Assembly (NCBI GenBank): GCA_964634935.1
Contig: CAZWJT010000006.1
Coordinates: 10,189 to 74,188, forward strand
DNA: 64,000 nt
Source: an uncultured Planctomycetia bacterium
GTDB taxonomy: Bacteria > Omnitrophota > Gorgyraeia > Duberdicusellales > Duberdicusellaceae
Reading direction: 5' to 3'
Under the pieces are notes generated by a model. The model saw nothing but the letters and a program-made list of their open reading frames with translations. It had not been told where the DNA came from and made no database searches. Numbering within the stretch: position 1 is the stretch's first letter; every line of letters starts with the position of its first letter. The position numbers and the translations under genes are program-made. Of the stretch, positions 1 through 48,000 are shown in pieces.

Positions 1-3000
1 AAACTACGCACACAGAAAACAGGAAAACTTTGGGTTGTGATTGAAGGATACCATGGGGCTGGGAAGAGTTATGCGGCGGAGCAAGTGAAGGATCGGTTAA
101 TACATCTTGGTTTACATCCTGTAGTTTTGAATTTTGATCTGTCCTGGACAGACCGACAAGAACGCAAGCGCTGGCGAGAAGAGGCGCGTTCTCGAGGGTT
201 GGGGCATGATTATTATGATGCGTTGAGACAGAGTCCTAGGCCAATGCATTGGCGGAAAGCGCATTCCGACCAGATGATAAAACAGATTACAGAGGGTACT
301 GGCTTGGTGACAATAGACGAGTGCTACCAGTTTGATGAAACGGGAAGCGCCACGGGAACAGAAAGCTTATTTCTGAGAGCTGATTCTGTTATTCTTGCTG
401 ATGGTGTTTACGCTTCAATGGTTGCCAAGAAAGATTGGGATCTGCGGATTTTCATCAGCATCGATCATGCGCTCTCCAAGAGCATAGCGATGGTTCGTGA
501 TCAAAAACGGGTTTATCGGAATCCGGAAGATACACGCGCTTTATACGAAGAAGTCTATGAGCCAAGCTATCAGAAGTACGCACGGCTCTATAGTCCCGAA
601 GAGAAAGCTGATATCGTGATGCGCGTGGAAAGAATCGATACACAAGCGATGGCCCCCTTGTGCCCCAGGCTCATTAGGACAAAGGAAGTTATGGTCATTC
701 TTGAATGTACGAATCCGGATTGTTCCTTCCAACAGCCGGCAGTTAGAACAAATGTCTGCCGCGTGTGCGGAAATGACCCAGGGAATATCATTCTTGGTGA
801 TGTCGATTTTCTGTCTTTGATCGAAGAAGGTGAGTCGAGTATGTGGCGTTATAAAAAATTAATGCCAGTAGATCCCAATGCTATCGTGAGCGATGGAGAA
901 GGGAATACCCCTGTTATTTATATGCCGAACGTAAGCGCCATGCTTGGTGTGCATGTGTGGTTTAAGCTTGAAATTGTGAACCCCACCGGGACATTTAAAG
1001 ATCGGGAAGCCTCTTACGTAGTTTCTTTAAGCCGGCAATACGGTCAAGAAAATCTGGTGATGCAATCCACGGGGAATACGGCAATTTCTATTACCCATTA
1101 TGCTGGATTAGCCGGAATTCCTTCCTGGGCTTTTATACCCGAAACAAGTACCTACAAACTTTTCATGCCCGAAAAAAGAAAACCGAATAAAATAATCGCT
1201 GTTCAGGGTCATCCTATCGATGTGAAGAATTTTGCTGAAGATTTCGCGATGCGGTATGGATTTCCTAAAATATCTCCCTTCTATGAACGTTGTGAAGCAA
1301 ACGCAACGCAGGCTTATGAGATTGCCGAAGCGCTTTTACGAAGAAAGCTCCCTGAGCAAGATATTCTCCGGGGCGGCTCCTTCGATTACTATATCCAGAC
1401 GATAGCGGCTGGTATGGGTCCGATTGGTTATTATCTTGCGATGAAACGGCTACGGCAATGGACACAAGGAAAAGTGGCTGTTCCTAAAATTGTGGCGGTA
1501 GAGGTGAGCGAATTTGCGCCTATTCAAGCTGCGTGGGACCGTGATCTTTCAGAAGTTGGCGAAGAAGTAGCAACCCCATACTTTCCTGATCATCCTTTGT
1601 TTGAGCCGACATTATGGACTACGAATATTAGAAAATATTATCCACATTTAAGAAGAATGCTTAAGGACACACACGGAACACTTACCTTAGTTACTCCAGA
1701 AGAGGTAGCTGTTGCGATGTCTGATTTTGGCGTGAAAGAAGAGCTGGAGAGCGTAGGATATAAACTGAGCGCCACTGAAAATGCTTCATTTGTCGGGTTT
1801 ACCGGGATGGTCCATTTAATTCAATCAGGAAATATTCCTCAAGGCAGTAAAATCATCCTCATGCTTACCGGGAAAGGGTTGCACCCACAACACATTCTTG
1901 AAAAGCCGGATTGCATCATCAATCCCCGGGAGCATAAGCCGCAAGATGCAGTTCGCATGAGTTCCTTTGTTGATTCTTCGGCAGTACTGTTCGAAAGCAA
2001 TGCCTTTTTATTTTTAGGAAGCATCGTGCTCGGGTTATTTTTATTGGGTATTTTGAAAACGCTCTCATCCCCGTTGACTTTGCGGGCACTCTATTTCCAT
2101 TCCGTTGCTCCACGCAGATTTTTAGATAACGGCGGTTATGCGGTCGGCAGAAAATTGTTTGGCAGAATGCGCGGCGCGATTAAAAGTATTTTTGGTAAAT
2201 CGTATGCTGCCCAGGCTCCGCCTCAGATTATCATCATCCCCGCATTTCGCTATGCAAAAAGCAAAAAATACTTGCTGCAAATAGCCACCCAAACCGCGAG
2301 AATAACACAAACAAAAATTCCATATTGTCCTTGTGTCACCATAGCACAACCGGTTCCTTTTTCTTCGTTAACCGATCAGATAGGCGGACGCTACGCACGG
2401 GGCAGAAAGCAGTATATTTTACCGAGTGATCCACCGTTTGTTTTTCAAGATTCGCCCGTAGTGGTTCTCACGGATATTGATCTTACCGGGTATGATCGTT
2501 ACGGAGATACAAAGTCATATGTGTTTGGGAGAACATATTTTCGCAAGCGGGTAGTATTTTTATCGACATACCGTCTGGCTAGCTCTGAGCCTGCTGTCGG
2601 TATCGCGCGAAATGTCAAGAATGCGCTTCATGAGTTTGGGCATCTCGTTGGGCTTGATCACTGCTTTTGTCAGGGGTGTGTCATGCGTTTTTCAGTTTTT
2701 CCGGAACAGCTTGACGGAACCAAAGCGGAATTCTGTGATTACTGTTCTCAGAGATTAGATGAACTATTTTCCCAGGGTAAAGCCTGGTCATTCGCATTTG
2801 TTCCTTTTATTTCGTTGTCGATTCTCGGAGTGATTTTTCTTCTCTGTTGTATCCGGGCAGTATTGAAACGACGGAACGTTGATTTCTGTAGCCGCCAGGA
2901 AAAGAACGACGGATATTTATGTTCCAGTTTGCAGCAATTGCGGAAATTAGGACAGAGACCAATAAGCCGACGGACTTTCTTGGGCGTCACAACGGCAGCG

Positions 3001-6000
3001 CTTATCCTCGGAGCCTTCATGAGTTATCGATACGCTCTAGATACTTCTGATGAGCAGGATATCGCGGATGACGACTTGAGATCGTTTCTCCAGAATTTCA
3101 TCGAAGATCTCGCCTCTTCTCAGGATCCTGCGCTTGCAAGCGCGCAGGCGTTTTACGAGCTGGCCGCTTATCAGATGATTGCCCCGGCTACAATTCCGAA
3201 TGCTGAATGTTGTCTTTCCGGTGTTCTTTGGTATGTTCGGCATCATGCGGATGGAACTTCTACGCTTGAATTACGCTTAGTTCTTGATCTGGAGGCATTC
3301 CATTCTCTGATAGTCAAAGCAAAGAAAAATGCCGTCTATAAAGCATTTGCGCGCTCGATAGTGTTGAAAGAAGGCGCGACCATTTTGGATATTCATGAAC
3401 ATCCAGATTTTTATTTTGAGACAAATGCGATACAGAGAAATTTTCCCGCACAGGCTGAAAAAGAAAATACGTTCTATGCCAGAAGCATCGCGGCGCGTTT
3501 TGTCGAGATTGAAGCTATAGGCTACAGGGAGCAGGAAGCGTACCTTACGCGCTCCGGTGTGAATGCAGAAATGCTTGCAGCACTGTGGCGTAGAGAGTCT
3601 GATGAGCGAATTCGTGTCTGTTTGAGCCTGAGCGCAAATATCATCAGGCTTCTCCGGCATAAAGAATTTTTTGATTTACGAATCGGTTTATTTTTAAGCC
3701 ATATTTCCGCGCTCTGGCCAAGTGTTTTTGAAGCATGCAAGATCCGTACCACGGCAGTACAAGAGAACCGGGGTATCGGAACGTTTCGCGGAGAAAAAGA
3801 GCAGTTTTCCTTTTTAGAAGATGCCAAGTATATAGACAGGAAGATCGAGGTTCAGCAATCTTCTTCTCATGATTTAGCGCATACTTCAGGCTGGCCAGTT
3901 GATGTCGGTATCTTTAGCGTTATTTTTGTTGGTATTCTTGTGCTTGCGATCAAGGAATTCATTTTCGGTTTATATTTTTCCACTCCTGTATCGCAGGGTT
4001 CAGCACAAAATACTCCCGCATACCCGTTCGGTATCTCTTCTTTCGAAACCGAAAAAAAATTAGCCGCGGCGCTTTCTGATTTAAATAGGATATATTCCGA
4101 AAAAGGAACAGAAGCTATTTTTGAAAAAGTTTGTGCGAATTTAGAGTTACAGCGTCACATTTCACGTATAATTCGCGCTCAAGACCGGCTTGAAGATACA
4201 AAAGGTTTTTCAGTGGCGCAGGAATGGGCCGAAGAATTTAAACATCATCTTCTTAGGCGGGCAGTCCAAGAATTACAGGGAAGAGACATCTGTATTTTGC
4301 AAATGGAATACGAATTTTCGATGCGTTTTCTCCAGGAATTTAAAGAATATCTTGTGAAGAGCAAAGGATGTAATGAATCTGACGCCATTTATAATACCGG
4401 TGAACTTGCGAAAATACTCATGGCTGGCGGGCTAGGCAGTTTTAAACCTGATTTGGTGCGAGGCTGGTATTCGGTACTGCGTGATCATTGGGGGGATATC
4501 GAAGCGCGCCGGCGTCTCCATGTTTTTGGCGTATTATATTGCGAAGCAATCAAAGGGCAAGGGAGAATTTTGACAAAAGGAGCAGTACAGTCAGAAAACA
4601 TCATTGATTTGGCCAGGCAGTCCCTATTCAAGATAAAAACCTATCACGGCTTGGAGCTTAATCTGCATGGGGTAGGGAGAGTCGATGTTGAGATATATAT
4701 GAATCCCTATTCGGAATTAAATGAATATTGGCTCTATTGTCCTCAGGTATTCCATGAGGCGTATTGTGGGAATTCCGACGACGACTTCCGGGCAATTCAA
4801 ACACTACTCTACCGGAAGGTAGTGCTCCAGTTTTTGAAAGAGAGGGCCAATGAAGGAGCAATGGGGCGGCGTTTGTTATTTTCGACAAGTGAAGTTAACA
4901 CAACCTTGGCTATTCCAACGGTGGTGAATGATTCATTCCGGACAGATCAAGCTTTTGGCGATATCGTTGTTCACCACTATAACCATACGATCGTTCCGGC
5001 TGGGATGCCGCGGTATCATTGGTATATGTTCGATTTATTGAAGATTGCCGATGAATTCAGGGATGCTATTCGCGATGGGTTCGTCGATTTAGTGAGAATT
5101 ACTGGCCAGGTGAGTCATTTTATTACCGGTTGTTCAAGCGAGCATACACGTATTTTACGTGAGAAGATATTTTGTGAGTTTTCCGGAAAAGTAGTTGAGG
5201 ACGACATTTTTGGCAATAGCGAAGGCTCAGATATCGAACGCTGGCAAGGAATAGGCATCCAAGGAGTGTGCCAGCGATATATGGCCCGAGAGAAAGTTTA
5301 TACCCATACTCAATTATTTAACCACCTTGAAATGAATGCTCGGTTAAAAGCAAGGTTTATCGGAGATTTATTGAGAGTCAAGCGCCAACAGAAACAGCGG
5401 TTTATCGCTGAGCTATTTTTCGGTACTTTCGGCGCTATGAATATTACCGAGGCAGAACTGGTAGCCTTGAAAGTTGATTTTATCAATATGCCATTCTTTA
5501 CCTTTGTCCGGCGTTTTGTCGATTATAAGTGCGGCGATCTTATTGTTGATATCCTTTCCGATCCTGGTTACCGTGAACGGATTATCAAGGCTGGAGCGGT
5601 TATTTTCATCGGAGGAAGAAAATTTGGTTCATTTGCAGATTTGCAGCAATACAGAATTCAGGAGTTGATTAAACAAGATCCGCGGCTGCGGTACCATATT
5701 GTATTTGTTTCGGACCATAACGTGTTTACTTCTTGGATAATTCAACAAGGCGTTGACTTCGGCGGTATGCTTTCTTGGAAAGGAATGGAGGCTGGCCCAA
5801 CCAGCATTAGTAATTCTGGTCAGAATGGGTCTCCAACCATAGCTTCTCCAGACGGGGTGATTCCTGAGCGGCTCAAGCAAATATCCCGCTCTTCCCAGGG
5901 AGTTATTACGGGCGGAACAGGGTACTCTGTGGAATATGGCCAAGAACTTTCTTCTTCCGGAGAGATTAAACCCGATAGAGAATCTTTGGTGCGGCGTATT

Positions 6001-9000
6001 GAGGAAGCTTGTCAGGATTATTTTCATCCGGAACGGTATGGTATCGCTGCATTGAATGTGTTGAGAATGACTACTACACAGGGGGATATTCGGAATCAAG
6101 CCCGAGGATTAATTAAAATTTGGGGAGAACAAATTTTTCTTCTGCGCGCAACCAAAAAAACACAGCAAAAGAAAGGTACTCAAGCATCCGCATCGTATGA
6201 TGGGATATTTTCTGTTCCAATTCTTATCGGAATCGTCGTTGCTGTTATCTTTTTCTCGAAGGTTTTTGTTTACGTTGTTCAATTGCTGGAAACCGTCTCA
6301 AAAAAGAAGATTTTCCAAGAAGAATCAGAACGGTCGCTGTGGAGTTTTCAAAAAAGGTTCCGGTCTACCTTCCGTGGCTGGCGGGGGCCGGAGTCCGCCA
6401 CAGCGGCCGTATTTTTTGAAACTGTTTTTGAGATTGGTATGCTTCTGGGTATTTTATTCTTGATGTTGTATTTTAAGACTGCTCTAACGAGTGATGATGT
6501 AGACAACCCAGGAGAATTTTGTAATCAGGCTTCTGGCGAAAAAGCCCCCGACCCTCAGGTTCCGCTTGACGCAATCTTTTCCGACACACCGGAATTTTCC
6601 CGTTGTTTTGATCGGATTTGGACTGAGCTTGCGAAGGCTTCAGGATCTCTTGAGGGGCTGCGAGCAATGGATATGGAAGAATTTGCCAAAAGGCTTGGCG
6701 GAAAGAAACTTATAACACTGACGAAAATATTTAAACGTGCCAAAAAGAGTGTTCCGTTTGGTATTTTTATCTCTCCCCGTGTATTTGAGCATATCATTAC
6801 GATCAGAAGATTCATCTGTGACCATCCAACAGATCCAATGGTGCGACATTTTGATTCAACACTGCGTAGTCTGGCGCAGGTTCAAGAGATTGATGCTCCC
6901 GGCTGGTATTATAATCCAATCAAGGGATGCACGAAGGCCTATGTTTTTCATGAATTTCTTGAGTCGAGTTTTTATGAAAGCGGAGTTATTGATGTTCATT
7001 TCGAATATTTTCTCAATGATCTGCATCCCGGAGTTCTCCTCGGGGAATTGGCCTTTTCGGCGTTGCTCGGCAAAGAGTGTTTTGAGCAATCCCGGGCAAT
7101 TATAGAAAGACGTCTCACAACTCTGGTTGAATTTGGCGAGGAACTTGAGCGTGCGCAAGGAATGAAACCGTGGGATAACATTAGATTTGATACAGGTAAA
7201 CCTTTAAGAATATTTTTAGGCTATTCTGCGGATGAGTATCATCGTTATGCCATACAATTGTGGAGAAAAGCGGCAGGGTTTTCTGTGCAACGAGAAAATT
7301 CGCAATGTATCGCATTTTTACCTGGGTGGATAACCATCTTTGGAATTTCTTTTGGGCTTCTTGTTCTTTTCGTCGCAGCAATTTTCTACCTGTGGCGGCG
7401 GATTAAACAAGAAGCAGTCTCTTTCCAGAAGATTGGCGGAACCGTGTATGTTCAGGGTGAGCATTTTCACGCTTTTACCGTGATTCGCGGCATTGATTTT
7501 GTTCCACACGTTTTTAGGCCGGCTTGTGGAGGAGTTGTTTTTCAGCGAGTAGACCGAGGTTTTGATCGCGCTACCCTGGAAGAAGCTGCTTCGTATGCGC
7601 GGATGCTTGCTGAGCACACGGATACTGTTGCAGCGCTTTGGAATACATATCTGCAAGGTGCGGCCACGGTTATCATATCCGATGGCTTACAGACAAAAGA
7701 GAAAATTTTATATCTTTGGGCTCGAGTCCTTGCGGAGCAGGGAATTCTAGGTTGGCAGTACATTGTTACTTCGGAACTCGGCACTGCCGAAGAAGATATG
7801 GCGTTCATCGCTGATGTTGCATACGCTACGGGGTTGAAGCGATATTTAGAAAGTGGACGTTTGAGCGAGGCAGATAAGCAAATAATCCGTTTCCATCTGC
7901 GCAAAAAGAGCTGGCATAATGTTCCAATTGAATACTTATGGGATGCGAATCTTGTTCTTCCAGCCGCCGGTTGTCCGGAAAAGTTTGGCGGACATCCGCC
8001 ATTTCGCTGGGATTTGGGGGGATTGAGCGTAGTTTCCGGAATACAGACAATACTTTGGTCAACAAAACAAAATTTTCCTGCGAACATTCTCATCGATGGG
8101 TTTGGATTTACCGGCCGCTCTATTGCCCGCTCCATTATTAAGCGTATCCCCGATGAAGTACGGATTAGCGGTATTGCACAACACAACGAAGCAGTTTTTT
8201 CTTCAGAAGGCATCGATAGTTTTAATCTGCTTCACTATATTAGCGCGCGGGAAAAAGGATTAGCTTCATCCGAGCTCGGTATTCTTGCCCGCCGGGAAAA
8301 ATCTCTGATGCCACGGCAGAAATTACTGAGACAAAATACGGATATTCTTATTTTGGCAAACCGGGATCACGAACTGACCTTTGAAGAGGTTAAATCGTTC
8401 AATGCGAAGATCGTGATCGTTGCGATACCGGGTGTTTTAAGTGTTGCCCATATGGATTGGCTGCATCGCCAAGGAGTTTTTTGTGTTTCGTCAATCTGGT
8501 TAAACGGCGGAATTCTTTTTGGAGCGCGGGAAGAACTCTTGCATAAATTGGTTGGTCGCGAACGTCTGCATGTTCGTGATATGCGCCGGCATGTCGAAAG
8601 CGGCGTCCGGGAAGTAGCGGTAACCGTAATGTTTGAAGAGCTTGACCGATGCAAATCCCATAGCGTATCGAGTGTTGTTGAAATGGGGCGTACAATGGCA
8701 AGTCAAATACGTTCCCATGAATTTGCTTTCTGGGATGCCATTCGGAATTCCGCTTCATCTCAGGGAGTTTCTTTGGAAGCGCTTGCTCAATCTCAGGATA
8801 CAGAGAAGGTAGTATCCGTAATTTCAGATCGGGCTTCTCCAGAATTAGCCCCTGTAACCCAATTGGCACTAGCAAACTATCGGGACGGAAGAAACGCCGT
8901 ATTCGGACTTTTAAGTGCGGTTCTGGAGATCGCCCGGCAACGGGTTATTTATAATGAGCATTCGGCAGAACGTGCCCTCCAGGCAATCAATTCAGATGAT

Positions 9001-39000: not shown

Positions 39001-42000
39001 ATGGCACCTCGCGAAGATTGGTTTTTATCTTTGCCGGAAAGCACAATCGCTCCTTACCGTGTGAGCGTATATAAGAAAATGTGTTTTTTACCAACGCTTG
39101 GCTGTTCAGTGCAGTGTGATCACTGTTATGTCTCCGCACCTTTCTGCGTGCATTCTTTGCCCTATCCGTGGATGAGCCAAGTTGTAAACACGCAGGCTTG
39201 CCGTGGTTTTATCTGGCAGTTAGGGGATTATTGGCGGGATTATTACGATTGGGTATTTATGAAATCTGCCCCGCATCTTGTTCGGGATATGTTTTCGTTA
39301 AAGTCTTCACTTCCGGTATTACGTCAAACAATGAGCAGTGGCGGCATCAGGCCAGGATCCGTGACCGCACATTATCTCGGAAATCAGAACGGATTTTTCG
39401 GCAAACACAGCCCATGGCATCAGTTCCAATTTAGCATTACTCCAAGCGTTGAAACAAGAATTTTGGGCAGACGCTACAATGAATTTTTACAGTATAATGC
39501 GGGAATTTTAAAATGGCTTGAATATCTTGGATGTACGGTATCATGCACGCATTACCGTATACAAAGAGATAGTGAGACATGGCCATTTGATGCCGATCTT
39601 ATACGGCAGATAACTGGTATTTTTTGTAAGGATCATAAGGTCGAAATGAGCGGACGTCTCAAACAACTGGAAAAGCGAGGGATTGGTTTTACGTGCAGAG
39701 GCAATACATTTATTGATCCTTTGGCACCCCATGATTATAAACTTACCGAAGATGTGCTTCTCGCCGATGGAAGCATGATTGATTCCAATTTTTTAGTCAA
39801 TGATGACGGTCAATCAAAATACAGATCGCTTGCTCGGGCAGCAGGCCTGAAATTATGCCGCGACTGTTCAATAACCTGCGCCAAGCGAGAAAGTTGTTTA
39901 CGGGAACAAGGGTTAACTGAGGATGGCGGTCTCCGCCAAGAATGCATTTTTAGTGGTTTTGTCCCTAGCATGGCCATTTTTGGGATTTTTCTTATCGGAT
40001 TTTTTATATTTTTTACCCCTTTGCGTAATAGAACACGAGTTTCTCGCCGGAACGTCGAGCCGTATGTGCGTTATTCACATATGACGCAGCAGAAATTTCG
40101 CGCTATGGTTTTACAGCTGAAAGATTGGCAGTTAAACCAGAGCGAACAAAAATCATTAGAGCGCTTTCTCAATATTTTCCCGCTGCTGGAATCAGTGAAC
40201 CGTGAAATGCGCATGAATACGCGATTTCCTCGTTTATGTCAATGGGCAAGTCAGAGGCTAGGCGAAGTATTGAAAGAGCATCAAATTCCTTTTAGGATCG
40301 TAATGAAACGAAACTTTATCCGCAAGCAAAGTTCGTTATTCCCGAGCGATGCAATAATTTATACAACCTGGATTGACGATGAAGAAGATACCCATATGCA
40401 TCAATATCCGATCATCGAAGTAGCTGGGATGGAATTCATTGTTGATATAACCGCTGATCAATTCGTATTCCAAGTTCATGAGCAATATGGAAAGTATAAA
40501 AATCTTGGGATATTTATTATTCCCGTTACTGCATTGCAAGAAAATTCTTGGCCGTATTCCGGAGGCGATGAATTCGCAGTGCGATTTTCTTCTTGCGCTT
40601 CCGTCGTTCTATCCATCCAGAGCATTAGTTTGGTTTTCTTGTTGTTCGGGGTATTGGTTTTGTGCGTAACGTATAAGGGCGTTGTGGCCAAGCTTTTTAA
40701 GCAGCACACGGAAAGCTATAGGGTGAGAATCGCAACTGAATTTTCTGATATCATACAGATAAGAAACGTGCGTTGGAATAAGTTCGGACCAAGAGGAAAA
40801 CAATATATTAATTCATGGCGCGATACACTTGATAGATATGATACCCAAGGATTAGCTTTGAACTTAGTGGTTGAAAGAAAAGGCCGCTTTCCTTTTCGGC
40901 CATGGACGTGTGTTGTAGCAACTGCCCGGCTTCTGTTTTACCGCGAAACTGATTTACTTCCAGCAGAGCAGACTTACCCTGCAGAATTTGCCCAACTCAA
41001 GACTAATTCGTCTGAGCATATTGCAGAAGTATCCCGATTGGCGAGCATCGCCGAGAAAGATACTCTTAAAGTTATCTTAGAGCTTTATCGATTTATATTC
41101 TATATTGCAAACGCCATCGGGATAAAAACATTAGTGATGGTGCATAATCCAGAGGATCAAGAATTCTATGCGGGTAATCTCTTTCCATTCCGTGTGATCG
41201 CTGATTGCAGTCAAGCGCGATACCTTGGTTTTTCTTCAGAACCACATCACGCAAATCGTGGCCTTCCGGCGCAGTTGTTGGCCCTTGATTTACATGGTGT
41301 TTATAAAGCTTCACAAGAAGTTGCCCATAAGAATGGGAGTAAAACCAGGAGTCAAAGAACACACGGATATTTTTACCATAAATGGAATTTTGCCATTGAG
41401 GATTGTCCAAAACTCGGCTGTCAGCTGGCAAGGGCAGTACGAGATGGAGTTATTCCTGAAAGCATCTGGAATGCGTATCGTTCGCAAGTCGTTCCGACTG
41501 ATACCTGGGCTCGGATGTTTACCTTGTCGATGCGCGGGAGTGCTGAAGCAGAACTAAAACGTATGTTGTTGGTGCATATACCGCGTGCGACAACGCCCAT
41601 GAATACAAAAGGAGTGGAAGATTATCTTACCGTGTGTGTTACTACAGGTCCACCTCTTTGGGTGTTGCTTGTGCTCTGTGCTATGGCCGCCGTATTCTTC
41701 CAAAATGTCTTTGCTGTTGACGATGGCTTTTCAGGAGCCGAGGAGTCCGATCAGCCTATCGATTCTCCCAAAAGGTCAGGGGCGAGCGCGTTTTTGTGGC
41801 TTCAGATCCGAGAGCCCACTGAGCTTTACCATACAACACACCAAGGTGTTTCTCATTTTCTCTATCGTGTAAGCTCAAGAGGAGCTATGCCTATGTCAGA
41901 AATTACTATTTCCAATGATTGGGCAGGAGGGTTGCGAGAGGGTAAAGAATCAATTTCTGCTCGTGCCGTTTCTTCCATAGCTGCGTATGATTTCTTTTTT

Positions 42001-45000
42001 CCGGATCCATTTTTTATACTTACCGTCGTAACTTTTTATCTTTTTATCCGGAAAATGAGCGGAGATAGAAAAGTAGAAGAAACCCCCTTTACCAGGTTAG
42101 AGGTTCTTGAAAATAAGCGCAATCCCCTTGGTTCGTTGGAGGAGAGATTAAAAGGTGGTAAAAAAACAATTACCGTTGAACTCTTGCCTTCCCGAAAAGG
42201 CAATATTTTAGATCAACAGCGTTTTCTCGAGCAAAAAGCGCTCTACAAGAGATTATATCTGGAAGGGATTATTGATGGGGTTACTATGGTTGATGCTCCT
42301 CGGCTTGGCATCATTGGAGAGAAAATTCTATTGTTCCTTGAGAAACTCTTGCCGGATCGGTTCAAGGCAATGAAAGCAATCAGCGCCCATATCGGTTGCT
42401 TTGAAGATCCGCTTACTGCTGGTTTTTGTGATATACCTGGTTATTTTGCCACGGTTGCTGCGCAACTGCGGAGTCGTAGGCAGATTGAGCGGCGCATAGA
42501 AAAATTTGTGCATCAGGGAGTGAAAGTTATTTTGTTTGTTTCGGGTAGCCATCCGTTACGTAGCATGCGTGGGTTACGGTGGTTCTTCGCCCGTCAGAAT
42601 GCGCTTACGATGCTTACTTTGGCGGCGCGCATGCAACAAGATGGGCGAATCTCCAATGACATACAATTCTGCGTGGCGGCTAATCCTCAGGGTGAACCGA
42701 CATCTGATGAAGCGATAGTGCATTGCTTAGAAAAATCAATCCGCGGGGCTTCTTTTGTATTTTTGCAGCCAAGATTTTTACGCAACAAAACAACGACAGC
42801 GGTAAAGATGATCTCGGAATCCGGATTAAAAATAGTGGAAGGAGTTTCTCTTATCAGCTCAGTCAGGAATCTTTTCTTTTGGTTCTGGCTAGTCAGGGTT
42901 CATCGAGAGCATCATGAGGCACGAACGCTTATTGATCAGTGGTTTGCCGCAGAACAACAGGGTGATTTAAGCGATTTTATCGTGAGCTGGAACCAAGAAC
43001 AGCTTCGCAATCTTTGGAGGACATCGAGTATCCATTATATGCCTATTGCCGCTTGGAGATATCTCGAACCTATTTTCCGGGCAGCGGGGATATCGAAAGA
43101 GGTCCGTTTGCAGGAAGATGCTTTGGGGCAGCATGCGCTCAGGGCAAGGGCGCTCTATCAAGCGGCTTCTTTGAATTTTTCAGTAAGGGAATATTTTTAC
43201 TCTATCGCCGATGTTCTCTGTGCGCTCGTTCAAAGGGCGGCTGAATTGGGGATTATCCAATTACGAGGTCCACCCGAAGATTTTCCTATAGCGATTTGTG
43301 ATTCCGACACCCGCCGCATAACATTTTCTATCAGTCCCGACGATATGTTGATAATTTTGTGGAAGTTGAAGACTGTTTCTCCTGAGGATATCTTAAATTT
43401 TATCTGGGAACACGAAAGACTTCATGAGAAACATCCTTCTTTTAGTGAACAGAATGTTCTGCAGATTCAAGCCGGGCATATTCTTTCAAATCGGTATGCG
43501 TTTTCCGGAAGCGCAAGCGGAACAAAAAAATATGCTGTTTTTTCAGTAAGTGATCCGAGTTTAGTCCAGGGGGCTTCTTTTGTTATGACTTCTTGGGTTG
43601 TTATTTATATTCTAGGCTTGTTCTTTTTGGTTGGATATTGTATGGTGCTTAGTCCCGGGGTTGCCTGTCCGCCCAGGAGTAAACTCGCCGATAGAATTAT
43701 TGCCTGGGAGAATCTCGACGCCTACCAAGATCTTCTCAAAAAATTAATTGAACAACATCGCGGCCGGATTATGTTTTTGATTCATCCAGGTGGAGGAAAC
43801 GTCGGAAGGATGGAAGACGGGCGGTACGAAGCGTATTATCCAATGGCTGATGTTTACATGGAAAATATGCGAATTTTGCTGGAACAAGAAGATGGGGTTG
43901 TTTGCGTTTTAGGGGGTGATTTTAGTACCTTCAATGGCGTTTATACAAAAGCGGTCATCGTTTATATTCCTTCAGACCAGCTGAGCCCGGTTCCTATTTT
44001 GGATCGAGTTCATGATGCGCAAATTTCCTGGGAATCTTGGGATCGTGTCATTGAAGTTCTTCAGGAATTTGGTGTTACGAGGTTGTCACCATTTGGCGGT
44101 GAGCGCGCTTCATTCGATGCGGATGGGAAAGTGTGCGTTACATTCGATCAAGCAAAGGTTGTTGGGTGTGTTGGTAGAGCTTTACATGTTCTTCAGGCCC
44201 ATTTTTCCATTACCGTGTTTCCACAACTGTGCTGTGATTACTCAGCGAATACGCATCTTTCCGGAAGGCGTTCACTAGATAAGGGAGCCTACAAGGTATT
44301 ATCAAACGGTACAAGCATTCGTCAGGATTTACCGGTAGGTTCGCCGTTCCTTTCTACATCCATTCCGGAATTACAAGATCGAATTATATCCAAAGCGCAA
44401 GCAGGTGACTATTCAGTTTTACGATTACACTGGAATTTACGTTTTATGCACTATCAGGAGTTCATCAAGCATGTTTTAGCCGTAAATCTTGCTGTACAAA
44501 AATTATCTCAGGACGCTGTTTACTGTGCTGGACATCCGGGTTTTGTGCGCCAAGCAATTCGAACTCGGATCGAAATGATCGATAACCGGATCATTCCCAT
44601 AGAACATGGTGGATATTTAGCATCGCTGACTCAAGAAGGAGAGGCAGTCGTCTCCAAAGCCTGGGACAGTATATATGACGAAGTCAAGCTTGTTGAGCAA
44701 GGCAGAAAAATTTTGGATATTCTCATCGATCCGAAAATGTCTTGGTTTATTCCGATCGATTCCAACGATCGGTTTGTCAATATTGATTGTACCGAGATAT
44801 CTGATTTGTCTGCCACGCTTGGATGTTCTACCCAGTGCGATCATTGCTATATCAACGCGCCATTCTGTGTTTTTTCTATGCCGTGGCCGTGGATCATGCA
44901 AGCAAAGGAAATTTTTCCTTCCATTCTCCCTTCTTGGATGATTGGTGACTATTTGCGGGATTATTTCGACTGGGTATTCTTCAAATCTTCAATTGACATT

Positions 45001-48000
45001 ATCGATCTCTTCTTTGGTTGCGATGAAGATAAGTCGGAGTTGATCGTTACTTCAGGAATAAGACCAAATTCAGTTGCAGCGTATATGCTGCGCAATTATC
45101 TTGATCGGCATGGAATGCCGTTATTGTATAAAGATATACGTTTGAGTATCGCGCCAAGCATAGAATCAAGGCTGTTGAACAGAATATCCGGAGCCAAAAG
45201 AGATTCGGCGCCCGAAATTGTGTGGCAGTTTATGGAAACTTTGGCACCGCCATCCCTGATATATCAGTATCCGATTCATCGCTATGGCGATGTTCCGTGT
45301 TATCTTGATTCCATAAAGTCGACAAAAAACCCGCCACAAATCATCAGCTTTGCTGTTGAGCCGCTAGGAAGATATGTCCAGCTGAAAAAAGCCGGGGTTT
45401 CTTTCCAGGGGGTAGTCGATACCTATAATGAGGGTTGGACGGGATCCGAACGAAAATATCTGTTTGCGGATGGCTCACTTATTTTTGGTTGGCAGGAGTC
45501 AGCGCGTTCTCAACGGCAACCAGCGCATAACATGGTAATTCCGCCTCTTGCCCGCACCGTTCAAGGTAAAGACTTATGCCGTGTCTGTCGAGTTCATTGC
45601 AGGAATCGCCAAGAGTATCTTCACGATTTAGGATTATCAAAATTTGGCGGAGCTGAACCAAGCCAACAAAACTCCTCTAAAACTTCCGCGGTTTCGTCAA
45701 TATCGCCGACATTGGTGCTTACGGTAATTTTTATCGTATTTTTGTTTTCCGCTGTATTTTCGCTGAGCCCGGCTTCTCGAAAACCGCAATTCGTGTGGAG
45801 CAGAGAAGGAAAAAGTCTCGGTTATGCTCCGCTTGATCTAAAAATTCCGCTTATCGTTTCTCGCTTGCTGCAAAATCATCAGCTTAGCCGTACACCACTT
45901 GTGTCCATGCGCCGGCTGAGCAACTTTACCGGCAAGCGGGTTTTTCTCAAAGATGAATCTTGTCAGATTTCCCATTCATTCAAAATGCGCGGTGTTCTGG
46001 CAGAAGTGGAAGAGGCAGTCAGCGAATATATTGCGATGATCAAGAAATCTTATTTTCCGAGCGCAATGCCTTTTTATGTTGTCACTCAGACTGTGGGTAA
46101 CCACGGCATCGCGATGATTGAAGCAACCCGTTTTTGTATCGAGAAATACAGAAATATTTTTCCCCAATACCAACGATGGATTAACGGTATTGAGCCGGTT
46201 GTTTTTACCACAATATTACTTCCGGCAGTAAAACGGGCGGGTCTGCATGACGCGTTGTCTTTATACCGGATGACTGTCGGCAATAATGAGCAAGGGGCTA
46301 TATACGATAGATTCGGAACCTATGCGCAAGCACGCATGGGACGGGAAGCGTTCATCGCTTTACATCCCGCGAATGCTGTTTACATGGAGCACGGAGGTTT
46401 GACGATTATGGCCGGGCATGCTTCTGCCGGGATAGAAATTGCCGAACAGCTTCAAGAGCGAGGTATCAACAAGGCAAGAAAGGTTGCTTTACTTATTCCC
46501 GTAGGAGCCGGCGGGCCGTTGGGTATTGCCGCGGGATTAAAAATGGAGATGCCGCATGCGGCTTCGGTTATGGTGCAAACGGACCGGTATTCGGCGTTCG
46601 TCCGCAGTCTTATTGCCGGATCACTTATGAATAATGATTTTACACAAATAGAACCGCTTGTTATCAAAGGGAAAGAATTCGTTTTTGAGGACGGCATTGC
46701 CGTGGATGCTCCGGAAAAGGAAGCGATACATATCGCTCAATCCGTTCTTGATGCCGCAGTTACGGTAGATTCTTTGAGTGCTTTGAATCGCGGCGCCATA
46801 ATTACCTATGCTGACCTCGCGGATTTCTACGCTGATCGCGCCGTAGTCGTGGGAGGGACTACCGCCGTAGCTGCCGAGGCGCTTTTGGAACATTCCACTC
46901 ATCTCGAGTCGCTCCGCCAGGCGGATGTGATCGTGCTTTTCGGCACCGAAGGCAATGTTGATCCTTGTATCACGCAATATATCAAACAACGAGCGCAAGA
47001 TAATAAATCAACAAGCTTATTATGCTCGCCAGCATGGTTGGGATTTTCCCTGATCGGATTGATACTGATCGGGATAGCTATGCTGCAATATTCCGCGCAG
47101 CTGCCATTGGAGGCGCATTTTGATAAAGATAGTTTAAGTCAAAAACGAGATATGTTTACCAATTTTCGGATAAGCTGTTCTGCGGATAGGCAAAGACACG
47201 ATTTAAGAGTCGGTGATATTATGCGGCGAGAACTTCCGTCAGCTTATTTTGCCTTCAGATGCATGTTGGCAGTGCGGTTTATCCTTGACGAATATGCTCC
47301 AGATAAACCGGTTATTGTATGGCAGAACGAGCGCCTGGGGACACTTTATCCATATATCAATGACACGCTTAAAAAAATGTTCGGGATCGTTGGGATTACA
47401 AGGGCTGACCTTATTGCTCCAGAGGCGATCAGTTCCGGGATAAGACAGGCGCGTTTTGTTTTGGTGCGCGAGAAAATTTCTTCGGAGAGACCCGAGCATT
47501 CCTGGTGCCTGGATGCGGTCAGGAAATTATCTATAGAATTAGCTGCACCGATCGTGTTTATCGATCACAGCGAACATCATTTCTCTGCGGCGCAATTATA
47601 TATTCAGAGCGTTGAAAATAGCAAAAAAAGGCAAACCATCGAAGTTGATTGCCGGGGGAAAGCGCAGGCGTATATTCCAGAAGGCGCTTTAGCGCAAAGA
47701 CCTTTCTTTATTCTTGTGAATGCCAATGTATATCCGGGGACGCGGTCGCTGTTTGATGATAATGAGTATTTTCTTGAACCATCTAAGTCGTGCGTCGTAG
47801 ATTTGCAAGATGAGCAAATAAACTTCTATTTAGCCTTTAGGCGTTTCTTTGCGCAAGAGATTGTCATGAAAAAGAGATATGATGAATCACGTTCTTTCTC
47901 CATAAGTCCGGCTTTGGCTCTGAGCGATGTCTTCCCCGATATGAGGGGTAAGGGTAGCCGCGACAGCAGTGATCATAGTATTAATTTATCATTAAATCTG

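What the first reader, a model, noticed from the sequence alone, without database searches (positions are those of the whole stretch)
25..46900. Small-molecule-metabolism folds in unexpected context: ThrC-like, Thr/Ser-dehydratase-like, MTHFR-like, 2x uridine-kinase/PRK-like, CDA-like
These domains normally occur as free cytosolic enzymes: 25-650 and 22510-23050 P-loop kinases; 850-1910 and 45850-46900 PLP enzymes with the Schiff-base Lys retained; 42130-42900 MTHFR-like; 37480-37780 zinc deaminase. Here they are fused in one polypeptide between TM helices. Either the giant protein is a scaffold that captured enzyme folds as binding or structural modules (some may be pseudo-enzymes, for example the degenerate Walker A 'GKA' at 22549), or the locus is an artefact or engineered/generated sequence. 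The coherent codon usage and absence of any frame break argue for a single evolved ORF.
Basis: partly seen in the sequence, partly recalled or inferred. Interest (0 to 1): 0.6.

Follow-up and report, generated by a model that had tools for sequence, protein, structure and literature searches.

The report
Enzyme domains inside a giant membrane gene

Summary
Frame +1 is open for all 21,333 codons; the other five frames carry 800-1,388 stops. All six fold assignments hold. ThrC-like, Ser/Thr-dehydratase-like and CDA-type deaminase pass Pfam thresholds and keep their catalytic residues. Kinase 1 passes Pfam PRK narrowly and has an intact Walker A. Kinase 2 and the MTHFR-like segment needed family profiles, and for MTHFR a confident AlphaFold model whose top 50 PDB matches are all MTHFR. 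About 50 transmembrane helices separate the modules. Codon and k-mer usage are uniform, so nothing points to a chimera. The nearest relatives of the best-conserved module (glutamate dehydrogenase plus kinase 2) are long Candidatus Omnitrophota proteins. The architecture matches published Omnitrophota giant genes ('Archaeovorins', 'multi-enzyme metabolic clusters'). The verdict is a new member of a known kind. The scaffold/pseudo-enzyme reading is mostly unsupported; only kinase 2 lacks a key residue, and it does so family-wide. Two findings are new. Nearly all isolated TM helices share one charge polarity, which an uncut, alternately threaded chain cannot satisfy. And GDH-bearing relatives mostly carry signal peptides. 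Which side of the membrane the enzymes work on is unresolved.

The parts
1..63999 (+). Internal fragment of one giant ORF (21,333 codons, runs off both window ends)
   Evidence: 0 stops in frame +1 against 800-1,388 in the other frames; homogeneous codon and k-mer usage
40..624 (+). Uridine-kinase/PRK-like P-loop domain 1 (aa 14-208); Walker A GYHGAGKS at nt 46-69
   Evidence: Pfam PRK 25.0 bits, gathering cutoff 22; NF004018 21.8 bits, far below its cutoff of 180; motif
820..1914 (+). Threonine-synthase-like fold-type II PLP domain; Schiff-base Lys at aa 333 (nt 997-999)
   Evidence: PALP 105.6 bits; NF006050 126 bits; alignment to 6cgq
1996..2055 (+). TM helix aa 666-685 closing the first module
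   Evidence: KD19 2.34
2458..2760 (+). Peptidase_M54 (archaemetzincin-like) domain; ends 8 aa before TM 928-951
   Evidence: 58.8 bits
20845..20913 (+). TM helix aa 6949-6971 preceding the 2,900-aa TM-free interval
21127..22296 (+). Complete glutamate dehydrogenase (ELFV_dehydrog_N + ELFV_dehydrog), with KGGIR, GGGKGG, PAPD, GYGNVG and NAGGV motifs kept
   Evidence: 153.6 + 198.2 bits; NF040817 390 bits; alignment with 13 relatives
22336..23235 (+). Uridine-kinase-like domain 2, conserved partner of the GDH; Walker A GPDACGKA (nt 22531-22554) lacks Ser/Thr
28018..29514 (+). Upf1/DNA2-type SF1 helicase (AAA_11/AAA_12), Walker A GPPGTGKT
   Evidence: 118.4 + 83.9 bits
29680..29739 (+). TM helix aa 9894-9913 (K/R in N/C flanks 2/5)
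30223..30699 (+). Trypsin_2 (S1-type serine peptidase) domain
   Evidence: 52.4 bits
37198..37263 (+). TM helix aa 12400-12421 upstream of the deaminase (K/R 1/4)
37492..37734 (+). CDA/dCMP-type zinc deaminase; HSE at nt 37591-37599, PCFHC at nt 37675-37689
   Evidence: 57.6 bits; alignment to TadA 1wwr
38638..39942 (+). Copy 1 of a triplicated ~440-aa module with invariant GCSxQCDHCY (CX3CX2C), a probable divergent radical-SAM domain
   Evidence: no Pfam hit
41656..41718 (+). TM helix aa 13886-13906 upstream of the MTHFR-like module
42136..43170 (+). MTHFR-like (beta/alpha)8 barrel (aa 14046-14390)
43570..43653 (+). TM helix aa 14524-14551
44359..45708 (+). Copy 2 of the CX3CX2C module
45709..45768 (+). 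TM helix aa 15237-15256 (K/R 1/4) between CX3CX2C copy 2 and the dehydratase-like domain
45874..46998 (+). Ser/Thr-dehydratase (IlvA)-like PLP domain; Lys at aa 15328 (nt 45982-45984); GAGGPL loop; about 90-aa insertion
47008..47085 (+). TM helix aa 15670-15695, 4 aa after the dehydratase-like domain
49045..49449 (+). Signal peptidase II (Peptidase_A8) multi-pass domain
   Evidence: 29 bits, gathering cutoff 25
53527..54402 (+). Sigma-70 regions 1.2, 2 and 4
56728..58068 (+). Copy 3 of the CX3CX2C module
58069..58140 (+). TM helix aa 19357-19380 (K/R 2/8), the only hydrophobic segment between CX3CX2C copy 3 and the Pfam Radical_SAM domain
58882..59106 (+). Radical_SAM domain with CPLQCRHC
   Evidence: 30.4 bits
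61447..61701 (+). GNAT acetyltransferase
   Evidence: 51.2 bits

Best explanation
The window is an internal piece of one natural giant gene (longer than 64 kb, more than 21,333 aa) of the Omnitrophota type: the 'multi-enzyme metabolic cluster' or Archaeovorin-like class.

Shown:
- The six flagged segments are genuine but highly diverged homologues of threonine synthase, Ser/Thr dehydratase, MTHFR, uridine kinase/PRK (two copies) and CDA-type deaminase.
- They lie in one chain with a complete glutamate dehydrogenase, an SF1 helicase, sigma-70 regions, radical-SAM-type modules, methyltransferases, a GNAT, three peptidases and a signal peptidase II.
- About 50 transmembrane helices punctuate the chain.
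- Most domains keep their catalytic residues.

Inferred:
- The domains work as enzymes, or at least as ligand-binding units, tethered to a membrane, and are not decayed scaffold.
- The chain is built from repeated cassettes of 'enzyme, short Ser/Thr-rich linker, TM helix, basic patch'. It grew by capture of enzyme genes and by internal duplication.
- Nearly every isolated TM has the same N-out/C-in charge polarity. The cassettes therefore look topologically equivalent, and they cannot all be threaded alternately in an uncut chain. My preferred resolution, at roughly 0.25-0.3, is proteolytic separation of cassettes, possibly by the embedded M54, S1 or A8 peptidases.

Not settled: which face the enzymes work on. 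Their cofactor needs (ATP, NAD(P)H, SAM, Fe-S, acetyl-CoA) point to a cytoplasm. Signal peptides on the relatives point to export.
For: - Open frame and homogeneous composition.
- Domain inventory.
- Catalytic motifs retained.
- MTHFR fold confirmed.
- The GDH plus UK-like pair is conserved at 30-41% identity in 13 long proteins. Those with names are Candidatus Omnitrophica or Tantalella. Five of seven GTDB loci are Omnitrophota MAGs.
- Density of 50 TM helices in 21,333 aa, about 1 per 430 aa. Published giants show roughly 1 per 370 aa at the densest and 42 in 39,678 aa.
- The published domain palette (methyltransferase, GNAT, radical SAM, HEAT, signal peptidase II, peptidases, glycoside enzymes) matches.
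- Internal duplicates at 35-40% identity include the downstream TM and basic patch.
- TM polarity: 25-27 of 30 isolated TMs have more K/R in the C-flank than the N-flank (p 2e-7 to 3e-5). 20 of 32 adjacent TM pairs with nothing hydrophobic between them share polarity. The multi-pass cluster alternates normally, which serves as an internal control.
- SAM/Fe-S-dependent domains sit in three consecutive single-TM-separated intervals.
Against: - The source contig was not found in any collection. Phylum assignment therefore rests on one conserved module. The gene ends, any signal peptide, any SecA_DEAD or C39 domain and the neighbouring genes are unseen.
- No NUDIX or GT5 domain, both typical of Archaeovorins, occurs in the window.
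- About half of the modules have no detectable fold.
- 11 of 15 GDH-bearing relatives have signal-peptide-like N-termini. This argues that at least this module works outside the producer's cytoplasm.
- No conserved cleavage motif was found in the linkers.
- The polarity bias could not be tested in other giants; the few TMs in the available long proteins split 9 to 7.
- TM calls rest on hydropathy only, not on a trained topology predictor.
- No enzyme activity was tested.
Confidence: 0.7

Rival explanations
1. Exported arsenal. The enzyme modules lie outside the producer's cytoplasm: in the periplasm, in a surface 'coat', or delivered to prey. They act on prey envelope, lysate or cytoplasm. The TM helices only anchor the chain. 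The identity as an Omnitrophota giant gene stays the same; only location and role differ.
For: - 11 of 15 complete GDH-bearing long relatives begin with a canonical signal-peptide-like N-terminus and have few or no other TMs, yet all keep the GDH catalytic motifs.
- Published TMHMM and DeepTMHMM surveys place most giant-protein domains outside. A signal peptide plus TM helices was called in three of the four proteins longer than 100 kAA and in nine of the 14 longer than 80 kAA.
- Upstream domains end 4-30 aa before a TM whose polarity puts that side outside.
Against: - GDH, kinases, helicase, sigma-70, four radical-SAM-type modules, SAM methyltransferases and a GNAT need ATP, NAD(P)H, SAM, reduced Fe-S, acetyl-CoA or DNA. 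None of these is available outside a cytoplasm (established biochemistry; domains).
- The window contains few envelope-degrading domains: only alpha-amylase-like, phosphorylase-like and peptidases.
- The same-polarity paradox applies to this model equally.
Confidence: 0.3
2. Scaffold of pseudo-enzymes. The enzyme folds were captured as binding or structural modules and no longer catalyse anything.
For: - Kinase 2 lacks the Walker A Ser/Thr, as does its whole family.
- A second, partial GDH-like Rossmann domain lacks the catalytic half (aa 2668-2837).
- Every domain scores far below the NCBIfam equivalog cutoffs.
- The MTHFR-like family carries 'SGSHP' at the place where, from my recollection of E. 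coli MetF and not from any alignment made here, the catalytic Asp motif would lie.
- HEAT repeats are present.
Against: - The PLP lysines, the deaminase HxE/PCxxC, the Walker A of kinase 1 and of the helicase, all GDH motifs, and CX3CX2C in all three 35-40%-identical paralogues are conserved. This is the pattern expected under selection for catalysis.
Confidence: 0.15
3. Assembly chimera, or an engineered or generated sequence, not a real gene.
For: The exact sequence is absent from all three collections searched. An ORF of this length is extraordinary.
Against: - There are no composition, codon or k-mer breaks at any scale tested.
- 64 kb without a stop in one frame only.
- There are almost no DNA repeats that could mislead an assembler.
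- Divergent natural relatives exist for a two-domain module.
- The MTHFR-like segment gives a confident AF2 fold when modelled with an alignment of its natural relatives.
- The class is independently documented from long-read complete genomes.
Confidence: 0.03

Closest known systems
Omnitrophota giant proteins: 'Archaeovorins' (West-Roberts et al. 2023, bioRxiv 10.1101/2023.11.21.568195), the 39,678-aa V. archaeovorus LiM protein (as described in Seymour et al. 2023, PMC10066038), and the 'multi-enzyme metabolic cluster' class (Nielsen & Lui 2026, bioRxiv 10.64898/2026.06.07.730766)
   Same: - ORF of tens of kilobases.
- A TM helix every few hundred residues.
- Many different, highly diverged enzyme Pfams tiling the chain: methyltransferase, GNAT, radical SAM, HEAT, signal peptidase II, peptidases and glycoside-active domains.
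- Almost no nucleotide tandem repeats.
- Nearest relatives of one module are Omnitrophota.
   Different: - The source genome and the gene ends are unknown.
- No SecA_DEAD, C39, NUDIX, GT5 or dockerin domain occurs in the window.
- The amino-acid, one-carbon and nucleoside enzymes seen here (GDH, ThrC-like, IlvA-like, MTHFR-like, UK-like, CDA) are not mentioned in the main text of those papers.
- Their main texts contain none of the terms 'positive-inside', 'polyprotein' or, in Nielsen & Lui, 'cleav-'.
Signal-peptide-bearing long GDH proteins of Omnitrophota (P0001-P0013, 1.8-5 kaa; e.g. GCA_023818895.1, Candidatus Tantalella remota)
   Same: They share the GDH plus uridine-kinase-like two-domain module at 30-41% identity, with all GDH motifs and the Ser/Thr-less GK P-loop.
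   Different: They are ten or more times shorter, have few or no internal TM helices, and mostly start with a signal peptide. They lie among ordinary housekeeping genes.
Tripartite C-terminal sorting signals (LPXTG/sortase, PEP-CTERM/exosortase, PGF-CTERM/archaeosortase). This comparison comes from my own knowledge.
   Same: A Ser/Thr-rich linker, then one TM helix, then a basic patch, with N-out/C-in polarity and tight coupling to the upstream domain.
   Different: No signature motif was detected: a Pro near the TM start occurs in 21 of 30 against 16 expected, not significant. The elements are internal and repeated about 30 times, not C-terminal. No sortase-like domain was seen.
Multi-enzyme fusion proteins and polyproteins (AROM, CAD, PKS/NRPS megasynthases, viral polyproteins). 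This comparison comes from my own knowledge.
   Same: Many catalytic domains are encoded in one reading frame. Proteases are embedded in the chain, as in viral polyproteins.
   Different: The domains form no pathway or assembly-line logic and there are no carrier domains. TM helices lie between domains. Processing is not demonstrated.

Membership tests
Omnitrophota giant ORF (multi-enzyme / Archaeovorin-like) | Single ORF longer than 20-30 kb | tested here: met
   More than 63,999 nt open, with both ends outside the window
Omnitrophota giant ORF (multi-enzyme / Archaeovorin-like) | Numerous TM helices, roughly 1 per 370-950 aa | tested here: met
   50 segments with KD19 >= 2.0 in 21,333 aa; literature values
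Omnitrophota giant ORF (multi-enzyme / Archaeovorin-like) | Many distinct diverged enzyme Pfams, none dominating by copy number (methyltransferase, GNAT, radical SAM, HEAT, peptidases, signal peptidase II, glycoside enzymes) | tested here: met
   compared. NUDIX and GT5 were not seen in the window.
Omnitrophota giant ORF (multi-enzyme / Archaeovorin-like) | Encoded in an Omnitrophota genome | tested here: inconclusive
   The source was not found. The named nearest relatives of the GDH+UK module are Omnitrophica or Tantalella. Of the GTDB loci, 5 of 7 are Omnitrophota and 2 are labelled uncultured Planctomycetia.
Omnitrophota giant ORF (multi-enzyme / Archaeovorin-like) | SecA_DEAD-like domain, N-terminal C39/S8 peptidase, neighbouring type II secretion genes | not testable with these tools
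   The window lacks the gene ends and flanks. None of these domains occurs within the 21,333 aa.
Threonine synthase (ThrC) | Fold-type II PLP domain with the Schiff-base Lys in the xxFKDR motif | tested here: met
   NPTGTFKDR aligned to 6cgq NPTGSFKDR; PALP 105.6 bits
Threonine synthase (ThrC) | Score above the curated equivalog cutoff | tested here: not met
   NF006050 126 bits against a cutoff of 303; TIGR00260 59.7 against 167. The segment is ThrC-like, not a bona fide ThrC.
Ser/Thr dehydratase (IlvA/TdcB) | SFKxRG Lys and Gly-rich phosphate loop | tested here: met
   SFKMRG and GAGGPL
Ser/Thr dehydratase (IlvA/TdcB) | Score above the curated equivalog cutoff | tested here: not met
   NF006390 54 bits against a cutoff of 421; the match is split in two by an insertion of about 90 aa
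MTHFR (PF02219) | MTHFR-type (beta/alpha)8 barrel | tested here: met
   AF2 model pLDDT 86, pTM 0.82; top 50 Foldseek PDB hits are all MTHFR; 1v93 E 2.9e-11, TM-score 0.74 on the target
MTHFR (PF02219) | Sequence score above the Pfam gathering threshold | tested here: not met
   The window segment itself gets no Pfam MTHFR hit. 4 of 10 relatives pass. The family profile hits 6fcx at E 1.3e-7.
MTHFR (PF02219) | Catalytic Glu and Asp and the FAD-binding residues | not tested
   Only the C-terminal half aligned by sequence. No residue-level structural alignment was made.
Uridine kinase / PRK (PF00485) | Domain 1: Pfam threshold and Walker A GxxxxGK[ST] | tested here: met
   25.0 bits against a gathering cutoff of 22; GYHGAGKS. 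The equivalog cutoff is not met: 21.8 against 180.
Uridine kinase / PRK (PF00485) | Domain 2: Walker A Ser/Thr | tested here: not met
   GPDACGKA; the residue after GK is A, M, I, L, R, P, E, Y and so on across 13 relatives. Fold-level kinship rests on profile hits to UCK1 (E 8.5e-4, 140 aligned columns), UCK2 and 1rz3.
CDA / dCMP deaminase (PF00383) | Pfam threshold, with H[AS]E and PCxxC zinc and catalytic motifs | tested here: met
   57.6 bits against a gathering cutoff of 25; HSE and PCFHC. The best named relatives are TadA and RibD, at scores far below their cutoffs.
Glutamate dehydrogenase (ELFV) | Both Pfam domains plus the catalytic Lys, Asp and Rossmann motifs | tested here: met
   NF040817 390 bits against an equivalog cutoff of 750.

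The most novel reading that the evidence does not exclude
The giant ORF is a bacterial polyprotein. Its roughly 30 'enzyme, Ser/Thr linker, TM, basic patch' cassettes are separated by embedded or partner proteases and inserted one at a time, all in the same N-out/C-in orientation. One gene would then yield dozens of single-pass, membrane-anchored enzymes. This would explain why consecutive TM helices share one charge polarity, which an uncut chain cannot satisfy. A bolder variant is that the cassettes are delivered to a prey cell, which would reconcile cytoplasm-type cofactor needs with the signal peptides seen on relatives.
Probability: 0.2. Interest if true: 0.8.

Novelty: new member of a known kind. 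Interest (0 to 1): 0.4.

Why it matters
Giant Omnitrophota genes take up a large share of very small genomes, and nobody knows what they do. This fragment adds three concrete and testable points.

1. The embedded amino-acid, one-carbon and nucleoside enzymes keep their catalytic residues. They are probably not inert scaffolding.
2. One module, GDH plus a Ser/Thr-less uridine-kinase-like domain, is conserved across Omnitrophota long proteins, and most of those carry signal peptides. That sharpens the puzzle of cofactor-dependent enzymes being exported.
3. The isolated TM helices nearly all share one charge polarity. This conflicts with the alternating in/out topologies that predictors assign to such proteins. 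It points to processing or to an unconventional way of handling the chain.

If the polarity rule holds across the published catalogue, it would change how these proteins are modelled.

Tried and rejected
- **Source contig.** An exact 48-mer was searched in the genome, metagenome and viral collections, with no match. A protein scan of metagenomes found only 43-46% identical GDHs.
- **Word-index homologue searches.** The MTHFR-like segment and the CX3CX2C module returned nothing. The exhaustive search then rescued the MTHFR-like segment.
- **CX3CX2C module structure.** An AF2 model from a 3-sequence alignment had pLDDT 42 and was unusable. A PDB profile search found nothing. The radical-SAM reading therefore stays at motif level.
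- **Radical_SAM hit inside the MTHFR-like segment**. Rejected: there is no CX3CX2C motif there, and the fold is MTHFR.
- **Sortase/exosortase-like signature before TMs.** Pro enrichment was not significant, 21 of 30 against 16 expected.
- **RSE[MVIL]R junction motif** seen in another long protein: absent from the window.
- **Internal translation starts.** SD-like plus start sites number 57 in frame against 103 and 23 out of frame, and are only weakly enriched near TMs, 20 against 12.4 ± 3.2. No support.
- **Internal promoters and terminators.** Promoter-like sites are at or below shuffle expectation. Terminator-like sites are slightly above, with weak stems only.
- **Generality of the TM polarity** in other long proteins at hand: too few TMs, 9 against 7.
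- **Kinase 1 against the kinase 2 family by hhalign.** Only the P-loop aligns, 37 columns, so the two are not close paralogues.
- **Tandem DNA repeats.** Essentially none.

Full report
**What is there.** Translating the window shows that frame +1 is open from nt 1 to 63999. That is 21,333 codons without a stop, while the other five frames carry 800-1,388 stops each. The ORF runs off both ends, so the gene is longer than 64 kb. GC content is 0.40-0.49 and GC skew is positive throughout. Codon usage per 4-kb tile differs from the global usage by KL 0.046-0.079, against a resampling null of 0.050 ± 0.005. GC3 is 0.38-0.46. Relative synonymous codon usage inside the flagged enzyme domains correlates with the rest at r = 0.97. 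There are essentially no tandem DNA repeats.

**Checking the six assignments.**
- The ThrC-like segment scores 105.6 bits on Pfam PALP and 126 bits on threonine synthase NF006050. It aligns to B. subtilis ThrC (6cgq, E 1.8e-22), with NPTGTFKDR opposite NPTGSFKDR, so the Schiff-base lysine is present.
- The dehydratase-like segment scores 75.8 bits on PALP and 54 bits on IlvA. It keeps SFKMRG and the GAGGPL phosphate loop, and it carries an insertion of about 90 residues.
- The deaminase scores 57.6 bits on dCMP_cyt_deam_1 and keeps HSE and PCFHC.
- Kinase 1 passes Pfam PRK when scanned alone (25.0 bits, gathering cutoff 22) and has an intact Walker A, GYHGAGKS.
- Kinase 2 on its own gives only P-loop matches. 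It is, however, part of a conserved family (see below). That family's profile gives its longest-range PDB matches to uridine-cytidine kinases 1 and 2 and to 1rz3.
- The MTHFR-like segment was the weakest: no Pfam MTHFR hit and only 18 bits in NCBIfam. An exhaustive phmmer search found 66 relatives. Seven of ten free-standing relatives match Pfam MTHFR, four of them above threshold. The family profile hits only MTHFR structures at the top of the PDB. An AlphaFold model built on that alignment has pLDDT 86 and pTM 0.82, and its 50 best Foldseek PDB matches are all MTHFR.

All six calls are confirmed at fold or superfamily level. None reaches a curated equivalog cutoff, so they are '-like' and not orthologues of the named enzymes.

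**The rest of the chain.** Pfam also finds:
- a complete glutamate dehydrogenase (153.6 + 198.2 bits);
- Peptidase_M54, a phosphorylase-like region, HEAT repeats and an alpha-amylase-like domain;
- an Upf1-type SF1 helicase, a Trypsin_2 peptidase, a CheR-type methyltransferase and an FeeM-like acyltransferase;
- a signal peptidase II, sigma-70 regions 1.2, 2 and 4, further SAM methyltransferases, a Radical_SAM domain and a GNAT.

About half of the inter-helix modules have no detectable family. A module of about 440 aa occurs three times at 35-40% identity, with an invariant GCSxQCDHCY (CX3CX2C) and a C-terminal Cys cluster. It is probably a very diverged radical-SAM domain, but neither Pfam, nor a PDB profile search, nor a shallow AF2 model could confirm this. 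Hydropathy analysis finds 50 strongly hydrophobic segments of 19-30 residues, about one per 430 aa.

**Whose gene is it.** The exact sequence is not in the GTDB representative genomes, the JGI metagenomes or IMG/VR. The best-conserved stretch, aa 7010-7745, comprises the GDH plus kinase 2. It matches 13 proteins of 1,800-5,000 aa at 27-41% identity over the whole two-domain unit. Those that carry names are Candidatus Omnitrophica or Candidatus Tantalella. A scan of GTDB species representatives with the kinase-2 family alignment returned seven loci. Five are Omnitrophota MAGs and two are labelled uncultured Planctomycetia.

Giant ORFs with many TM helices and many diverged enzyme domains are described for this phylum.
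- A 39,678-aa, 42-TM protein is reported in V. archaeovorus.
- 'Archaeovorins' carry glycosyltransferases, methyltransferases, hydrolases, peptidases and even glycolytic enzymes.

The window fits this class. Membership in the phylum is likely but not proven.

**Enzymes or scaffold.** In the alignment with the 13 relatives, the GDH motifs KGGIR, GGGKGG, PAPD, GxGNVG and NAGGV are all conserved. In the partner kinase-like domain, GPxxxGK is invariant but the next residue varies (A, M, I, L, R, P, E and others). The family as a whole therefore lacks the Walker Ser/Thr, while uridine-kinase-like blocks (ILIvEG; FVNTAPSMKL.DN.PLTS..LR..R) are conserved. A second, partial GDH-like Rossmann domain lacks the catalytic half. 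The pseudo-enzyme idea thus holds for a minority of modules. For most, retained catalytic residues argue for function, including CX3CX2C in three old paralogues. This is inference from conservation; no activity was measured.

**An unexpected regularity.**
- For TM helices at least 150 aa from any other, the 15 residues before the helix are poor in K/R and rich in Ser. The 15 residues after it are rich in K/R. The summed counts are 40 against 100, where 54 is expected on each side. In 25 of 30 helices the C-flank has more K/R, and in 3 the N-flank does (p = 2.7e-5).
- The result is stable to window length, threshold and flank size. It peaks at 27 against 1, p = 2e-7.
- Of 32 adjacent helix pairs with no other hydrophobic segment between them, even at a permissive threshold, 20 share this polarity. 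The multi-pass cluster at aa 10794-11285 alternates as the positive-inside rule predicts, which serves as an internal control.
- An uncut chain that crosses the membrane at every helix cannot satisfy this pattern.
- Three consecutive single-helix-separated intervals hold a SAM methyltransferase, CX3CX2C copy 3 and a Radical_SAM domain. Two further neighbouring intervals hold a GNAT and a methyltransferase. Strict alternation would therefore place cofactor-dependent enzymes on both faces.
- The duplicated units include the downstream helix and its basic patch but not the upstream helix. Upstream domains end 4-30 aa before a helix, while downstream domains start 36-160 aa after it. The building block therefore looks like 'enzyme, short linker, TM, basic patch'.
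- The main texts of the two giant-gene papers contain none of the terms 'positive-inside' or 'polyprotein', and Nielsen & Lui does not contain 'cleav-'.

**Where do the enzymes work.** The evidence conflicts.
- GDH, kinases, helicase, sigma factor, radical-SAM modules, methyltransferases and the GNAT need cytoplasmic cofactors or DNA (established biochemistry).
- Yet 11 of 15 complete GDH-bearing relatives begin with a canonical signal-peptide-like N-terminus and have few or no other TM helices. This implies export, even though their GDH motifs are intact.
- Published topology predictions likewise put most giant-protein domains outside, and the authors themselves call some of these placements implausible.

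My preferred reading is a membrane-tethered chain of working enzymes whose cassettes are handled one by one, most simply after proteolytic separation. Three peptidase domains and a signal peptidase II are embedded in the chain. I give the processing step only about 0.25-0.3. No linker cleavage motif was found. Internal translation starts and internal promoters find no support. The main rival is an exported or prey-directed enzyme arsenal.

**Verdict.** The object is a new member of a known kind. Its interest lies less in the six folds than in the open question of how such chains are threaded and where they act. The polarity rule and the signal peptides on relatives make that question directly testable.

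Noticed in passing
window-wide; e.g. nt 2782-2853, 12055-12114, 29680-29739, 39943-40017, 45709-45768, 58069-58140: 25-27 of 30 isolated TM helices have a K/R-poor, Ser-rich N-flank and a K/R-rich C-flank. 20 of 32 adjacent TM pairs share this polarity, which is topologically impossible for an uncut, alternately threaded chain.
   Followed up: yes
window 38638-39942, 44359-45708, 56728-58068: A module of about 440 aa is present three times at 35-40% identity. It has invariant GCSxQCDHCY (CX3CX2C) and a C-terminal LCxxCxxxCxxR, and is probably a diverged radical-SAM domain. It has no Pfam or PDB match, and the AF2 model was poor.
   Followed up: partly
window 21028-23235; relatives P0001-P0013, loci L001-L010: GDH plus a Ser/Thr-less uridine-kinase-like domain form a conserved two-domain module in Omnitrophota long proteins. 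11 of 15 such proteins start with a signal-peptide-like N-terminus, although they carry an NAD(P)-dependent enzyme with intact motifs.
   Followed up: partly
window 53527-54402: Sigma-70 regions 1.2, 2 and 4 are embedded in the giant chain between TM helices at aa 17178-17196 and 18186-18205.
   Followed up: no
window 49045-49449: A signal peptidase II (LspA, Peptidase_A8) multi-pass domain lies inside the chain. Together with the M54 (nt 2458-2760) and Trypsin_2 (nt 30223-30699) peptidases, it is a candidate for self-processing.
   Followed up: no
window 8002-8511: A second, partial ELFV_dehydrog-like Rossmann domain (29 bits; 22% identical to the true GDH at aa 7166-7365) lacks the catalytic N-terminal half. 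It is a likely degenerate copy.
   Followed up: no
window 54556-54636, 60340-60435, 61156-61260: Three TM helices share the ending VLWA[TA]-[QR]NPR and are mutually alignable, which shows that helix-plus-flank elements were duplicated. Another internal duplicate is aa 4397-4567 with aa 10827-10996 (34% identity).
   Followed up: no
L014 65-23995 (protein P0034, 7,976 aa, GCA_035390585.1); also P0027 and P0045: A TM-poor multi-enzyme protein that shares the MTHFR-like domain carries the pentapeptide R-[SA]-E-[MVIL]-R 21 times, against 0.1 expected, roughly every 380 aa. Codons vary synonymously, so selection acts on the peptide. It may be a junction or cleavage motif. It is absent from the window.
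   Followed up: partly
window 50001-52000: This is the lowest-GC stretch (0.40) with the highest GC skew. It encodes three closely spaced TM helices (aa 17120-17196) followed by a K/R/E-rich, probably coiled-coil segment.
   Followed up: no
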